Below, in pieces: positions 5,604-38,103 of a DNA stretch of 64,000 nucleotides. The translations under genes and the position numbers were made by a program. The stretch is from an uncultured Gammaproteobacteria bacterium. GTDB taxonomy: Bacteria > Patescibacteriota > Microgenomatia > Levybacterales > UBA12049. The stretch is from assembly GCA_964507055.1 (NCBI GenBank), contig CAZDOJ010000003.1:4819-68818 (forward strand), in the 5' to 3' direction. The notes under the pieces are model-generated. The model saw nothing but the letters and a program-made list of their open reading frames with translations, searched no databases and was not told the origin of the DNA. Numbering within the stretch: position 1 is the stretch's first letter; each line of letters begins with the position of its first letter.

Positions 5604-8600
5604 TTAATTAACAATCCACCAACTCAACCTCACATCAGTGGACTCTGCAGATCGTACCCGAATTTCAAATGTGTCAGCTGCAGTCTTCTTAACCGCAGTA
5701 GTCACTGGAATTTCTTCTGCTTGGACAAAGATCTTTGATTTATCGGACAGAGCAGAAGTCTTAACAATAACTTTTGTTTGCCCTTCCTTTAAGACAACTT
5801 CTCCTAAGGATGCACTTGCAACTTCTTCAGTATCGATATTGACCTTCTTCGCCGTAATCTCCCCTTCAGACTTCATGTTACCTTTATTATCGATTGTTAT
5901 CTTACCGTTGAGGATATCAATTCCGTTAAGACCATTTGATTGCAGTCGTAATGCTCCGACAGATGTGTTGATGGCAGCAGAACCTTCGTTATCAAGTCCT
6001 TCGATGCTAAGAAGCCCAACATTCACCTTTCCTGTGATACCTACGTCTGCAAGCGTTGTACGCCCTACAACAGCCAATGTATCAGTGACTGTGACTTTGT
6101 TAACATCAAGCTTCTCTAGATCAAGTTCTGCTGCAGATGAAGCAGTAAATCCTCCAGGTGCACTTGTCATGAAAGCTGAACTGCTCGCAGAATCCTCGAG
6201 TGTTGAAACTCGCGTAGTTAATGCTGCAAGCATGTCTTGGAGAACATTGGTCTTGCTCTTTACAGTAGTCAAAGCTGATGAGGTCGCCGTTCGTGCATTG
6301 AATGAATCATCAGAGATATTAGTGTTCTGGTTTTGAGCAAGTTGTGGATTAAATGGTTTACCATCAACTGAAATATTTCCATCTGAACTTAACGTGGCAC
6401 GTGGGTCGTACCATGATGGATTAACCAATGCAACAACTTTACCCACTGCACGAGGATCAGGATTATTGTATGATTCAACAGCCTTTGCGATTGTAGTACC
6501 AGCTTGTGTAGCCTTCATAGCAACCCCCGGAATACTACTCGAAGTAAGGTAATCACCAGGTTTGATTGGACCATTTTCGGTACTAACCTTTGTAGGAATT
6601 CTTCCAGCAAGTGCAATTGGATACTTCTTATCATTACCAAATCGTCTCTCTTCATCACCGAATCCTCCCAAAAGGATACCTGGCTTTGTAGAAACGATAC
6701 CGAGGATACTTCCCTGATAAGAATTCTCTGAGCGTTTGACGTATTCTGTATTATTTGGATCAGCAATAACAAGATCTCCTGGCTCCAATGTATTGTCTTT
6801 TGATGGATAATTCTCAGCTAAATCGATTGCGGTAACTGTACTGGATTCTGCATAGATACGTCCTGCTAGTCGTGAAGCATCATCACAATTACTTCCTCCA
6901 TCATCAACACAAAGTGCACCATTACCGACATGAAGAGAACCATCTGGCAGATTTGTAAAATTATTTGTGCCCAAACCAAACGATGCCGCACCAGTAAGGG
7001 TTGCCAATGTTACCGTCGCAGCTCCATTATTTTCAAATACAAATCCCGCATTAGCATCATAGACTTTCAAATAAACATTCTCTGCAGTTCCAGCATTGTA
7101 TTGAGAGAATAAGATACCTCCACCAATATTTGCACCATATATATTTGGATTTTGGATATAATTTAATGAAGATATTCCTCGTACATCGAAATCATAATTA
7201 GGATCCGTAAGTCCAATACCAACTCTTCCGCCTCCTCGTTGTAAAATAAGATCATCGTAAACCCCACCAATAATGGATGCAATATCATTGTAACCTCCGC
7301 CTGTTCTGTTTGTGCCAAATGCCAGATAATTCAGTGAGCCAGGTCCATCAGTGAATAGTACAGAATCTCCACTTGTATTTCCTGCAACATACAAAGGATT
7401 TCCTGGATTGGTTACTCCCCCAATACCTACATTTCCGCTATTCGTAATCACGAATTTGGTAGCCCCACTCTTTGAGGCGGTAAAGAGATCTCCGACGCCA
7501 TTATTATCGACCATGAAAGCGGCTTTTGCAGTACTCGCTGATATCGAAGCTGCCGGAGCGGTTCCGCTAGTACCAAAGATACTCAATGCTCCATTTATTG
7601 TTTGTTCCCCGTTAACTGATAATCCATTCCACATTTGAGCATTTCCTGCGACAGTGAGACTGCCATTACTAAAGATATTTCCGGCAAAAACACTTCCGCC
7701 TACAGCTCCATTGCCAACCATACCTGAAGCTGATGCGATATTGCCTCCAGATAATCCGATGAGGTCAAGATTTGCGTTCATTGAAATTCTTGCTGTACTT
7801 GCATAGTAGACAGTGCTTTGAATACCACTAGTACCACTTGTGGTTGTAGAGCCTCCCACTACATACATATATCCGTTTTCGATAACACCATTCTTCGAGA
7901 TGTTCCCACGAACTCCAGGAATTAAGTATTGATTGGTTGCCCATGTTCCTACAGTTCCATTGTCATTCAATTTTGCAAAGAAAACTTCATCTTGAGCATT
8001 ACTTGTATCATCTCCTCCCATCGCATAGACATAACCATTTGCCACAACTGATGAATGACCTACTCTTGCGGCTGGCATTCCATTGGTTGAAGTCCATGAA
8101 CCGACAGAACCATCACCATTTAGCTTTGCAAAATAAACATTTGTTGTACCGCCACTTGCATTACCTCCGATCATGTAGACATATCCATTAGCGACAACTG
8201 ATGTATGACCTCGAGTTGCTGCTGGAAGGTTGGTACCATTGGTCGTCCATGCTCCAATTGATCCATCTGAATTAATCTTTGCATAGTAAATGCTATTGAT
8301 ATTGTTATTGATAACATTGTTTGATCCTCCAAGCATATACAAGTATCCATTGGCGACAACTGAAGATTGGGATTGAATAGCCTGAGGCAAGTTGGTTGCA
8401 GTCTGCCATGATCCAAGTGTTCCATCAGTATTAAGTCGTGCATAGTACACTTTATTTTGAAGCGTAATAGAAACCTGTCCACCAGCAACATACACATAGC
8501 CGTTATAAACCACTGCAGTTGCATTACTCAAACTTGTTGGAAGCGAAGACGTGGTTCTCCAGTCTCCTACAGAACCATCTGCATTTAATGCCGCATAATA

Positions 8601-37332: not shown

Positions 37333-38103
37333 ATGCTTAGAAAAGGTATTCTTGCCACGATTGTAGGATTGCTGTTTGTGACAGCTATTTCCCCTGTGGC
37401 AGCATCAGATTTATCAAACGGAACTGCCATAGGTGTTACAGTCTCAGACAAAGACATTCAGGACGGTGATATTATTAGCTCAACGCAAGAAGGTTACAAA
37501 AGAACTGTTTCAGCGTATGATCCACAAATCTTTGGAGTCATCAGTAAAAGACCAGCGGTATATTTAAGTGACACAACTTCCCCAACAGATCTTCCTGTCA
37601 TCAGTGTCGGACAAGCTCGCGTCCGAGTTACTACACAAAATGGAAATATCCAGCGAGGAGATTTTATAACTTCTTCAACAATACCGGGCGTTGGTCAGAA
37701 AGCGAGAGATAACGGCTATGTTATAGGTACAGCAGATCAAGATTACAGTAACAATGACACGAAGAAAGTTGGGATAATTCTTGTAACACTCCATCCTCAT
37801 TTCGCAAAACTATCAAACGATATCACAAGGAATCTTTGGAATACAGCAACATTAGGATTTACGGCTGCACTTGAAACACCTCTTGGATTTGTGAGATATG
37901 TGGTTTCCGGTACGATCGCATTACTTTCATTCTTCTTTGGATTTAGATTCTTCGCAAGATCATCCAATCGAGGTGTTGAAGCAATTGGACGTAACCCTCT
38001 TGCAAAGCAAGCAATCCTCTTAAGTGTGTTCATCAACAGTATGGTTACTATTGCAATTATGTTCTTTGGTGTTGCTATCGCGTATTTGATTCTAGTACTA
38101 TAA
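37333..38103 (+). CDS. Fusion-like membrane protein: N-terminal signal/anchor, a roughly 120-aa extracytoplasmic domain homologous to a C-terminal domain of giant protein B, and a C-terminal 2-TM hairpin resembling ATP synthase subunit c (loop 'VEAIGRNP') but lacking the conserved carboxylate and Gly motif. First gene of the atp operon.
   Basis: Strong RBS. Ends 4 nt before atpF. The C-terminus '[46 protein letters not shown]' resembles the c-subunit loop 'QGKAVEGIARQPE' followed by helix 2, but the E/D position holds Ile/Thr. The ectodomain '[14 protein letters not shown]...[22 protein letters not shown]' matches giant B 'GDLVIADPNNTEYVKRS...[22 protein letters not shown]'. Confidence 0.6.
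   Translation: [256 protein letters not shown]

What the first reader, a model, noticed from the sequence alone, without database searches (positions are those of the whole stretch)
6400..37700. A roughly 120-aa domain shared between the C-terminal region of giant protein B and the ectodomain of the atp-operon leader protein
Giant B near its C-terminus ('GDLVIADPNNTEYVKRSENSYQGSILGIVSTKPG...[50 protein letters not shown]...VGKVVALVNPSWYDP', about 6400-6800) aligns clearly with residues about 55-175 of the 37333-38103 protein ('[33 protein letters not shown]...[47 protein letters not shown]...[12 protein letters not shown]'). The conserved core is 'NG.I..GD[FY][IL]TSS.IPGV..KA'. A module exchanged between a giant surface fibre and a membrane protein co-transcribed with ATP synthase suggests a common binding partner or cell-envelope anchoring function.
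Basis: seen in the sequence. Interest (0 to 1): 0.65.

Follow-up and report, generated by a model that had tools for sequence, protein, structure and literature searches.

The report
Phage-chaperone domain on ATPase rotor subunit
The shared 135-residue domain is real: it is a phage tail-spike "self-chaperone" fold that sits near the end of giant surface fibres and, in an inactive form, on the outside of a rotor-like subunit of a second ATP-driven motor that has no ion channel and is encoded beside those fibres in many ultra-small (CPR) bacteria.

Summary
Giant B aa 2310-2448 and the 256-aa protein aa 39-163 align at 32% identity, E 9e-19.

The domain has the fold of the phi29 gp12 C-terminal intramolecular chaperone (MEROPS G2; Z 13.7-13.8), which phage capsid cement proteins share. 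Copies in giant proteins keep the gp12 autocleavage motif D-x-A-E (DLAE at aa 2301-2304). The small protein has G and I at those positions.

The "leader protein" is not AtpI. It consists of a signal peptide, the inactive domain and an ATP-synthase c-subunit hairpin. The hairpin keeps the GRNP loop and has lost the ion-binding carboxylate.

Its operon encodes b, delta, alpha, gamma, beta and epsilon, and no a subunit. It is a divergent paralogue: the genome also has a canonical F1Fo operon and a second divergent operon of the same build.

In Microgenomatia such genes lie beside ATPase genes (66/75 and 12/15) and never beside an a subunit (0/75, 0/15). In three loci beyond the window the operon adjoins giant genes carrying the domain.

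The likeliest reading is an ATP-driven, non-ion-translocating machine tied to the giant fibres. It resembles the mycoplasma F1-like X0 ATPases. Physical contact between the two proteins is not shown.

The parts
5604..13724 (-). Giant protein B, 2706 aa: N-terminal MerR-type HTH (aa 7-43, window 13596-13706), one TM helix (aa 127-148, window 13281-13346), then a long repetitive extracellular region.
   Evidence: Translation; Pfam MerR PF00376 E 1.2e-11; the TM helix is read from the sequence.
6402..6824 (-). G2-type intramolecular-chaperone (IMC) domain of giant B, aa 2301-2441. It begins with the putative autocleavage motif D2301-L-A-E2304 (window 6813-6824).
   Evidence: AF2 model has pLDDT 90.8. 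Best structural match is phi29 gp12 692-854 (3gqh_A), Z 13.8, rmsd 3.1 over 119 aa, with model residue 13 (= D2301) at the start of the cleaved fragment (D692). phi29 reads WS|DFAEYFE at that point. D, A and E are >=90% conserved in 60 giant-type copies. Pfam Peptidase_G2 is sub-threshold, E 0.075.
5607..6401 (-). C-terminal tail of giant B after the domain (aa 2442-2706), of unknown fold. Cleavage before D2301 would free aa 2301-2706 as one fragment.
   Evidence: No Pfam or NCBIfam family. A tail of similar length (median 245 aa) follows the last domain copy in 148 representative homologues.
37333..38103 (+). P0002, 256 aa, first gene of the divergent ATPase operon: signal peptide (aa 1-25), non-catalytic IMC/cement-fold ectodomain, linker helix, c-subunit-like hairpin.
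   Evidence: Translation. 370 homologues in CPR metagenomes, some named 'F0F1 ATP synthase subunit c' by JGI. AF2 model pLDDT 81.
37420..37806 (+). Ectodomain of P0002 (aa 30-158), homologous to the giant B domain. The positions of the catalytic D and E are G30 (invariant) and I33.
   Evidence: BLASTP E 9e-19. 3gqh_A Z 13.7, rmsd 2.4 over 113 aa; phage cement proteins Z 9-12. Alignments A1 and A2.
37879..38100 (+). c-subunit-derived hairpin (aa 183-256) with the loop [11 protein letters not shown] (aa 214-224, window 37972-38004). There is no acidic residue in TM2: the carboxylate position, 19 residues after N221, is I240. N235 and T239 are conserved.
   Evidence: hhalign against 21 canonical CPR c subunits: probability 94%, E 1.4e-7. 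NCBIfam F0F1 subunit C E 0.0088. c-ring chains Z 9.4-9.9. R220/N221/P222 are kept in ~640 of ~650 carriers.
38108..38821 (+). b-like peripheral-stalk subunit: N-terminal TM helix plus a long coiled coil.
   Evidence: Weak NCBIfam hit to F0F1 subunit B, E 0.012. Position in the operon and 23% identity to the b-like gene of the second operon.
38839..39342 (+). delta (OSCP)-like subunit.
   Evidence: Pfam OSCP E 1.5e-4, 22.3 bits, exactly at the cut-off.
39339..40832 (+). alpha subunit, with P-loop GNRKTGKT.
   Evidence: Pfam ATP-synt_ab E 5.4e-67. 43% identical to the alpha of the second divergent operon and 35% to the canonical alpha.
40840..41730 (+). gamma subunit. The ORF is listed from GTG 40732, but ATG 40840 is the likelier start.
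   Evidence: Pfam ATP-synt E 3.9e-20. The start is inferred from the 292-aa gammas in L014 and L016.
41791..43182 (+). beta subunit with intact GGAGVGKT and GERTREG motifs.
   Evidence: Pfam E 2.6e-58. 54% identical to the beta of the second divergent operon and 41% to the canonical beta.
43186..43587 (+). epsilon subunit.
   Evidence: Pfam ATP-synt_DE_N E 8.2e-10.

Best explanation
The shared module is a ~135-residue beta domain of the phi29 gp12 C-terminal 'autochaperone' type (MEROPS/Pfam Peptidase_G2). Trimeric phage capsid cement and head-fibre-base proteins have the same fold. In the giant membrane-anchored fibres the domain keeps the D-x-A-E motif found at the gp12 self-cleavage site. 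There it most likely helps the fibre fold and oligomerise and then cuts the chain before D2301 (inferred). One old copy lost the D and E and was fused, behind a signal peptide, to the outward-facing N-terminus of an ATP-synthase c subunit. That c-like hairpin keeps the cytoplasmic GRNP loop, the counterpart of the canonical c-subunit loop that faces F1 (gamma/epsilon), and has no ion-binding carboxylate. Its operon encodes a complete F1 with intact catalytic motifs and a b/delta stalk, and no a subunit. The complex therefore cannot translocate ions the way F1Fo does. The most likely reading is that it burns ATP to drive or hold a c-like membrane ring whose outer face carries a crown of cement-fold domains. 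Its output would be mechanical or assembly work at the cell surface, functionally tied to the neighbouring giant fibres that carry the same domain. This parallels the mycoplasma F1-like X0 ATPase, which is needed for the MIB-MIP surface system. Shown here: the homology, the fold, motif presence and loss, c-subunit ancestry, absence of a subunit and carboxylate, paralogy, and conserved neighbourhood. Inferred: autocleavage, ring formation, rotation, and any action on the fibres.
For: Homology: E 9e-19. Fold: both AF2 models match phi29 gp12 692-854 best (Z 13.7 and 13.8), followed only by phage and herpesvirus capsid decoration proteins. Giant-type copies reach Pfam Peptidase_G2 (14/60, best 2.2e-6), XM1_gp53 (14/60) and Phage_cement_2 (4/60). 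Motif: phi29 reads S|DFAEYFE. The giants read DLAENY, DLAEFY and DLAEDY. 249 of 297 copies in representative homologues are preceded by D.AE. hhalign puts the two motifs in register. The c-type has invariant G30 and I/V at these positions. c-subunit ancestry: hhalign 94%, E 1.4e-7; NCBIfam subunit C E 0.0088; structural Z 9.4-9.9 to c-ring chains; the gene lies directly upstream of the b-like gene, where c lies in the canonical operon. Topology fits, since the N-terminus of a c subunit faces outward. No a subunit and no carboxylate: PF00119 and PF00137 hit only the canonical operon in this genome. PF00119 lies within 6 kb of P0002-like genes in 0/75 and 0/15 carriers, against PF00006 in 66/75 and 12/15 (random places: 6/300). 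No acidic residue occurs in TM2 in any of 33 members. Active F1: Walker A and GERTREG are intact. Separate lineage: beta is 54% identical between the two divergent operons and 41-43% to canonical. Link to the fibres: a second operon of the same build is followed on the same strand by 5,899-aa and 11,810-aa ORFs, the latter with two copies of the domain. In foreign loci L014 and L016/L017 a MerR-HTH giant carrying the domain lies divergently next to the operon. Precedent: the Type 3 F1-like X0 ATPase of mycoplasmas is required for MIB-MIP function and co-purifies with it. One of its X0 subunits has a signal peptide, ectodomains and two C-terminal TM helices (PMC12994834).
Against: There is no experimental or transcript evidence, and no structure of the assembly. 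Ring formation and rotation are inferred only from c-subunit ancestry and the conserved loop. The fold's known assemblies are trimers (PMC6542822), and it is not clear how these would fit a c-ring. Without an a subunit, the b-like stalk has no obvious membrane stator partner. In this window the gene next to the operon is giant A, which lacks the domain; giant B lies about 22 kb away. The domain is very common in CPR giants, so some proximity could arise without a functional link. Pfam matches to Peptidase_G2 are below the curated cut-off for the window's own copies.
Confidence: 0.6

Rival explanations
1. Independent reuse of a common oligomerisation module. The domain merely trimerises or stabilises whatever it is fused to, and the ATPase-like complex has a job unrelated to the giant fibres. 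The neighbourhood would then reflect a shared cell-surface gene island or shared regulation.
For: The fold is a generic trimer-forming cement/chaperone module used in many phage contexts (PMC6542822). The domain occurs in tens of thousands of large proteins. In the window the directly adjacent giant A lacks it.
Against: The operon lies next to a domain-bearing giant gene in three loci beyond the window, at 34-62% c-like identity to P0002. The c-type clade has a single origin among giant-type copies.
Confidence: 0.25
2. P0002 is the c subunit, or a c-ring component or assembly factor, of a second working ion-coupled ATP synthase that borrows the canonical a subunit in trans.
For: The F1 and stalk genes are complete with intact catalytic motifs. 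The c-like hairpin keeps the F1-facing loop. A conserved polar pair, N235/T239, lies in TM2 near the usual ion site.
Against: No TM2 carboxylate occurs in any of 33 members. There is no a gene within 6 kb in 0/75 and 0/15 carriers. Subunits are 20-43% identical to the canonical set, so mixed assemblies are unlikely. No Pfam match to AtpI-type leader proteins was found.
Confidence: 0.07
3. The similarity is chance or compositional.
For: None was found. The giant proteins are repetitive and rich in G, S and T.
Against: E 9e-19 with composition correction. Only five ORFs in the genome match. Independent AF2 models give the same best PDB match.
Confidence: 0.01

Closest known systems
phi29 gp12 (pre-neck appendage) C-terminal intramolecular chaperone; MEROPS G2 / Pfam PF11962 Peptidase_G2
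   Same: Same fold (Z 13.7-13.8). The giant-protein copies carry the same D-x-A-E motif at the same structural position as the gp12 cleavage site S691|D692. Both lie towards the C-terminal end of a long fibre. gp12 is a homotrimer whose IMC domain is absent from the mature virion (PMC9863714).
   Different: Sequence similarity is sub-threshold for Pfam. In the giants the domain is followed by a further ~250-aa tail and often occurs as two tandem copies. gp12 folds in the cytoplasm, whereas here the domain is extracellular. The c-type copy lacks the D and E and is N-terminal, not C-terminal.
Phage capsid cement / decoration proteins and the phi29 gp8.5 head-fibre base (XM1 gp53 PF23982, Phage_cement_2 PF09956, HFTV1, Sf11, TW1, BB1)
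   Same: Same fold (Z 8-12) with weak profile matches. Like the c-type copy, they have no autocleavage motif and act as surface-displayed oligomeric caps.
   Different: They bind capsids of tailed phages. Here the domain is chromosomal, tethered to a membrane hairpin, and there is no phage context.
F-type ATP synthase subunit c (PF00137)
   Same: Two-helix hairpin and a cytoplasmic loop identical in type to this lineage's own c subunit (EAIGRNP). The gene lies just before the b gene, and the N-terminus faces outward.
   Different: No TM2 carboxylate. It carries a 160-aa secreted N-terminal extension and lies below the Pfam cut-off. There is no a subunit partner in the operon.
Mycoplasma F1-like X0 ATPases (Type 2 in the M. 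mobile gliding motor; Type 3 required for the MIB-MIP antibody-cleavage system)
   Same: A paralogous F1-type alpha/beta/gamma/epsilon set besides the genuine F1Fo, with no a and no normal c. It is genetically linked to cell-surface proteins in a genome-reduced, host-dependent bacterium. One membrane subunit has a signal peptide, an ectodomain and two C-terminal TM helices (PMC3369863; PMC12994834).
   Different: The CPR operon keeps b-like and delta-like stalk genes and has no 12-TM subunit. Its membrane subunit is recognisably c-derived and carries a phage IMC/cement fold. The associated surface proteins are giant fibres, not MIB-MIP. Homology between the two membrane subunits was not tested.
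N-ATPase and other early-branching F-type operons
   Same: An additional F-type operon besides the housekeeping one.
   Different: N-ATPases keep a and carboxylate-bearing c subunits and translocate Na+. This statement rests on established knowledge and on bioRxiv 10.64898/2026.10.01.756066; it was not tested here.

Membership tests
Peptidase_G2 / phi29 gp12-type intramolecular chaperone domain | The fold of gp12 residues 692-854 | tested here: met
   3gqh_A is the top match for both models: Z 13.8, rmsd 3.1 over 119 aa (giant B), and Z 13.7, rmsd 2.4 over 113 aa (P0002).
Peptidase_G2 / phi29 gp12-type intramolecular chaperone domain | D-x-x-E motif at the N-terminal boundary (gp12 D692, E695; cleavage before D) | tested here: met
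   Met for giant B (DLAE, aa 2301-2304) and the other giant copies. NOT met for P0002 and its family, which have G30 and I33. The c-type copy is therefore not filed as a G2 peptidase.
Peptidase_G2 / phi29 gp12-type intramolecular chaperone domain | Score above Pfam's curated cut-off (25 bits) | tested here: not met
   Giant B scores 12.9 bits (E 0.075) and P0123 15.5 bits. 14 of 60 homologous copies match at E<=0.01, best 2.2e-6. This is a distant branch of the same superfamily.
Peptidase_G2 / phi29 gp12-type intramolecular chaperone domain | Autocatalytic cleavage after trimerisation, followed by release of the domain | not testable with these tools
   Needs protein chemistry.
ATP synthase subunit c (PF00137) | Two-TM hairpin with a conserved polar loop (R-Q/N-P) facing F1 | tested here: met
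   AF2 helices 183-217 and 222-255. c-ring chains Z 9.4-9.9. The GRNP loop is invariant and identical to the canonical c subunits of this lineage. hhalign 94%, E 1.4e-7.
ATP synthase subunit c (PF00137) | Ion-binding carboxylate (E/D) in the middle of TM2 | tested here: not met
   The position 19 residues after the loop N is I240, against E in the canonical c. No acidic residue occurs in TM2 in 33 members. Census at position 240: L/I/V/F/A.
ATP synthase subunit c (PF00137) | Score above Pfam's cut-off (24 bits) | tested here: not met
   No hit for P0002. 3 of 33 family members match at E<=0.095. PF00137 finds only the canonical c in this genome and in each of 24 of 26 relatives.
Canonical F1Fo ATP synthase operon | An a subunit (PF00119) encoded with c, b, delta, alpha, gamma, beta and epsilon | tested here: not met
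   PF00119 hits only C1:634445-635077 in this genome. It lies within 6 kb of P0002-like genes in 0/75 and 0/15 carriers. No such gene is present in L010, L014 or L016.
Mycoplasma-type F1-like X0 ATPase | Extra alpha/beta/gamma/epsilon-like set besides the genuine F1Fo, without a and canonical c, linked to a surface system | tested here: met
   Three ATPase gene sets in the genome. The divergent sets lack a and a normal c. They lie next to giant surface-protein genes.
Mycoplasma-type F1-like X0 ATPase | Seven-gene cluster with a 12-TM subunit and a small cytoplasmic subunit, and no b/delta stalk (PMC12994834) | tested here: not met
   The operon has b-like and delta-like genes and no polytopic membrane protein. 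It works like this family but is not a member.
AtpI/UncI-type atp-operon leader protein | Small polytopic membrane protein matching the ATP-synt_I families | tested here: not met
   Pfam and NCBIfam scans of P0002 gave no such family. The architecture is a signal peptide, a beta domain and a c-like hairpin.

The most novel reading that the evidence does not exclude
Microgenomatia (CPR) bacteria carry an ATP-driven rotary machine derived from F1Fo. Its carboxylate-less c-ring displays a crown of phage cement/chaperone-fold domains on the cell surface and physically engages the C-terminal modules of giant fibres carrying the same domain, docking, assembling, tensioning or turning them. This would be a new kind of surface mechanical device built from an ATP synthase and a phage tail-spike part.
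Probability: 0.2. Interest if true: 0.9.

Novelty: new variant of a known kind. Interest (0 to 1): 0.68.

Why it matters
Three things follow if this holds. First, it adds a second, independent case, after the mycoplasma F1-like X0 ATPases, of a genome-reduced host-dependent bacterium turning a copy of its ATP synthase into a non-bioenergetic machine linked to surface proteins. Here the intermediate state is unusually readable, because the b, delta and c-like parts are still recognisable. Second, it gives a concrete handle on the giant surface proteins of CPR bacteria, whose function and maturation are unknown. They carry a phage-type self-cleaving chaperone module with a predictable cut site, and they are encoded next to a dedicated ATPase. 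Third, metabolic reconstructions that count "ATP synthase" genes in CPR genomes may miscount, since about a third of the sampled Microgenomatia genera (252 of 708) carry this a-less paralogue. All members are currently labelled hypothetical protein or, wrongly, subunit c.

Tried and rejected
- Direct Pfam scans of both window proteins found no family for the domain.
- A phmmer search of the giant B domain against PDB sequences gave only a spurious RecA-linker hit.
- A profile search of PDB sequences put 3gqh first, but only at E 0.11.
- Complex prediction with the P0002 ectodomain and the giant B domain as partner scored 0.00-0.01 against a mark of 0.32. That is no verdict and is not used either way.
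- The promoter/terminator scan was no better than shuffles. One 10/12 promoter-like site at 37287-37316 precedes P0002.
- hmmsearch with the A2 profile missed the 11,810-aa ORF. phmmer and the genome search found both of its copies.
- The careful ML tree did not finish in the time allowed, so only the quick tree is reported.
- Eight literature searches found no description of this operon type or fusion. [quoted passage not shown]
- AtpI-type leader protein was considered and rejected on architecture. Chance similarity was rejected.
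Full report
**1. The observation**

Giant B is the 2706-aa ORF at window 5604-13724 (minus strand). The second protein is the 256-aa ORF at 37333-38103 (P0002). BLASTP aligns giant B aa 2310-2448 with P0002 aa 39-163 at 32% identity over 139 columns, E 9e-19, with composition-based statistics.

The window is C3:4819-68818 of a 1.56-Mb, 7-contig genome. A phmmer scan of all its six-frame ORFs finds the domain in only five ORFs:
- giant B;
- a 1434-aa protein that starts at window ~63444 and runs off the window;
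- an 11,810-aa ORF on contig C1, with two copies;
- P0002;
- a 268-aa paralogue of P0002 on C1.

**2. What the domain is**

Neither Pfam nor a PDB sequence search names the domain directly.

An AlphaFold2 model of P0002, built on 33 homologues, has pLDDT 81. A model of the giant B domain, built on 60 homologous copies, has pLDDT 90.8. Both have the same best structural match, the crystal structure of the phi29 gp12 C-terminal fragment (3gqh_A, residues 692-854):
- P0002: Z 13.7, rmsd 2.4 over 113 aa;
- giant B: Z 13.8, rmsd 3.1 over 119 aa.

Foldseek agrees. For the giant B model only 34 of 48,161 representative chains reach Z 2. The hits above Z 2.5 are capsid decoration or cement proteins of phages and herpesviruses, the phi29 head-fibre base among them.

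The gp12 fragment is the intramolecular chaperone that is absent from mature virions (PMC9863714). It is the type member of Pfam Peptidase_G2, 'IMC autoproteolytic cleavage domain' (E 1.5e-86 for gp12 itself).

Translating phi29 gene 12 gives ...NTWS|DFAEYFES... at residues 691/692. Every giant-type copy in this genome has the same motif at the same place: A-I-DLAENY (giant B aa 2301-2306), ADLAEFY, YDLAEDY and ADLAENY.
- The structural alignment starts at model residue 13, which is D2301, opposite D692.
- hhalign puts the two motifs in register.
- D, A and E are at least 90% conserved among 60 copies.
- 249 of 297 copies in 148 representative proteins are preceded by D.AE.

Weak profile matches point the same way. 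Peptidase_G2 is matched by 14 of 60 copies (best 2.2e-6), XM1_gp53 minor capsid protein by 14 of 60, and Phage_cement_2 by 4 of 60.

The family is very large: 26,658 cluster representatives at E<=1e-3. Most are proteins of 500-6800 aa with two tandem copies and a tail of about 245 aa.

**3. What the 'leader protein' is**

P0002 has four parts:
- a Sec-type signal peptide (aa 1-25);
- the beta domain (aa 30-158);
- a helix (aa 164-181);
- a two-helix hairpin (aa 183-217 and 222-255).

In the beta domain the two catalytic positions are G30 (invariant) and I33. This copy cannot be a G2 peptidase. It resembles the non-cleaving cement proteins.

The hairpin loop [11 protein letters not shown] is invariant in the family. 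It is the same loop as in this genome's own canonical c subunit (...AMEAIGRNPDAS...). Several lines support c-subunit ancestry:
- profile-profile comparison with 21 canonical c subunits of related genomes gives 94% probability, E 1.4e-7;
- NCBIfam 'F0F1 ATP synthase subunit C' matches at E 0.0088;
- c-ring chains match the hairpin at Z 9.4-9.9;
- JGI has named several homologues subunit c.

The canonical c has its carboxylate 19 residues after the loop N. P0002 has I240 at that position and its paralogue has V. None of 33 members has an acidic residue in TM2, whereas N235 and T239 are conserved.

The topology is consistent. A c subunit has its N-terminus on the outer face, which is where a secreted domain would be added.

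**4. The operon**

P0002 is followed four bases later by a b-like gene, then delta (OSCP), alpha, gamma, beta and epsilon.

There is no a subunit and no normal c subunit in the operon. In the whole genome PF00119 and PF00137 each hit once, in a canonical a-c-b-delta-alpha-gamma-beta-epsilon operon at C1:634346-640633.

A third ATPase gene set on C1 has the same build as the window's: the P0002 paralogue, then b-like, delta, alpha, gamma, beta and epsilon. The two divergent sets are closer to each other than to the canonical set:

| Subunit | Between the two divergent sets | Divergent vs canonical |
|---|---|---|
| beta | 54% | 41-43% |
| alpha | 43% | 35-37% |
| c-like | 34% | not comparable |

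Walker A and GERTREG are intact in both divergent beta subunits.

**5. Distribution**

Proteins like P0002 over their full length are confined to Patescibacteriota. They are found mainly in Microgenomatia (252 of 708 genera sampled, in the 20-59% score bands), with a few in Minisyncoccia.

| Neighbour within 6 kb | 20-39% band | 40-59% band | Random places |
|---|---|---|---|
| alpha/beta gene (PF00006) | 66/75 | 12/15 | 6/300 |
| a-subunit gene (PF00119) | 0/75 | 0/15 | <3 |

Most genomes of the same genus carry two paralogues, and most genomes elsewhere in the same order carry one. The ESM Atlas and source annotations call all of them hypothetical.

**6. Link to the giant proteins**

On C1 the second operon is followed on the same strand by 5,899-aa and 11,810-aa ORFs. 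The latter has two copies of the domain.

In a JGI contig (c-like protein 62% identical to P0002) and in two NCBI assemblies (44% identical), a giant gene lies divergently upstream of the operon. In the NCBI loci its N-terminus matches Pfam MerR HTH. Each of those giants carries the domain about 300-450 aa before its C-terminus, as giant B does.

In the window, giant A and two other genes lie between giant B and the operon.

In a quick maximum-likelihood tree the 35 c-type ectodomains form one clade (SH-aLRT 100, long stem) within a starred clade that also holds 44 giant-type copies. This suggests a single old capture. The caveats are few alignment columns, a distant outgroup, and an unfinished careful search.

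**7. Mechanism**

Shown:
- homology of the two segments;
- the G2/cement fold;
- retention of D-x-A-E in the fibres and its loss in the c-type;
- c-subunit ancestry without the carboxylate;
- a complete F1 and stalk without an a subunit;
- paralogy to the housekeeping enzyme;
- conserved neighbourhood with fibre genes.

Inferred:
- The fibres fold and oligomerise with the help of the domain and self-cleave before D2301, as gp12 does.
- P0002 forms a ring under gamma/epsilon. This rests on the near-invariant RNP loop, the counterpart of the loop that faces F1 in canonical c subunits.
- With no carboxylate and no a subunit, the complex hydrolyses ATP for a non-ion-transport task at the envelope. 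The ectodomain crown would be the output or attachment site.
- That task concerns the giant fibres.

The nearest functional precedent is the mycoplasma Type 3 F1-like X0 ATPase. It is required for the MIB-MIP surface system and co-purifies with it. One of its subunits has a signal peptide, ectodomains and two C-terminal TM helices (PMC12994834; PMC3369863).

The CPR system differs in three ways. It keeps b and delta. It lacks the 12-TM subunit. Its membrane subunit is recognisably c-derived.

**8. Open problems**

- The fold's known assemblies are trimers (PMC6542822). It is unclear how these would decorate a c-ring.
- The membrane stator partner of the b-like stalk is unknown.
- No contact between the ring and the fibre has been shown.

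**9. Verdict**

The giant-protein copy is an ordinary, though unannotated, branch of a known phage-derived autochaperone family.

The notable part is the c-subunit fusion and the a-less F-type operon it leads. I could not find either described in the searchable literature.

Noticed in passing
window 13596-13706 (giant B) and the N-terminus of giant A (19070-35968, minus strand): Giant B starts with a cytoplasmic MerR-type HTH (PF00376, E 1.2e-11) followed by a single TM helix, and giant A has a near-identical N-terminal sequence. The giants next to the operon in foreign loci L016 and L017 have the same start. A DNA-binding head on a multi-thousand-residue surface fibre is odd. It loosely recalls membrane-tethered transcription factors such as MyRF, which also carries a phage-type autocleaving chaperone domain.
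   Followed up: partly
genome contig C1:634346-640633, C1:1273006-1279323 and window 37333-43587: The 1.56-Mb genome carries three F-type ATPase gene sets. Only one has a and c subunits.
   Followed up: yes
genome contig C1:1218735-1271668 (minus strand): ORFs of 5,899 and 11,810 aa lie directly downstream of the second divergent ATPase operon on the same strand. A closed genome of the same genus has a 16,560-aa ORF with the domain.
   Followed up: partly
window 36263-37222 (+): A 319-aa protein with a C-terminal DeoR/ArsR-like HTH (E 9e-4 and 1.4e-4) lies between giant A and the operon. A 312-aa gene holds the same position in L016 and L017, but there is none in L014.
   Followed up: no
window 40732-40840: The gamma ORF listed from GTG 40732 overlaps the end of alpha by 100 nt. 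The ATG at 40840 gives 296 aa, close to the 292-aa gammas of L014 and L016, and is the likelier start.
   Followed up: partly
window 43906-45656 (minus strand): Nucleoside-diphosphate kinase and an M16 peptidase follow the operon, in the same order and orientation as in the JGI contig L014. Synteny therefore extends beyond the ATPase genes.
   Followed up: no
L014 and L015 (JGI contig Ga0485828_0000014, 90-111 kb and 186-200 kb): The same contig holds the operon region twice with identical gene lengths, and the second copy is at the contig end. This is possibly a circular or assembly overlap and not a true duplication.
   Followed up: no
giant B aa ~1698-2000 (window ~7700-8630): There is a run of repeats of the type 'ANGY[VI]Y..GG......Y[YF]A.LN.DGS.G.W', which look like Kelch/beta-propeller blades. 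This was read from the sequence only.
   Followed up: no
genome C1:635185-635391 and loci L018-L040: The canonical c subunits of this lineage have a G-R-N-P loop instead of the usual R-Q-P. The c-like fusion proteins share it, which points to their origin within this lineage.
   Followed up: partly
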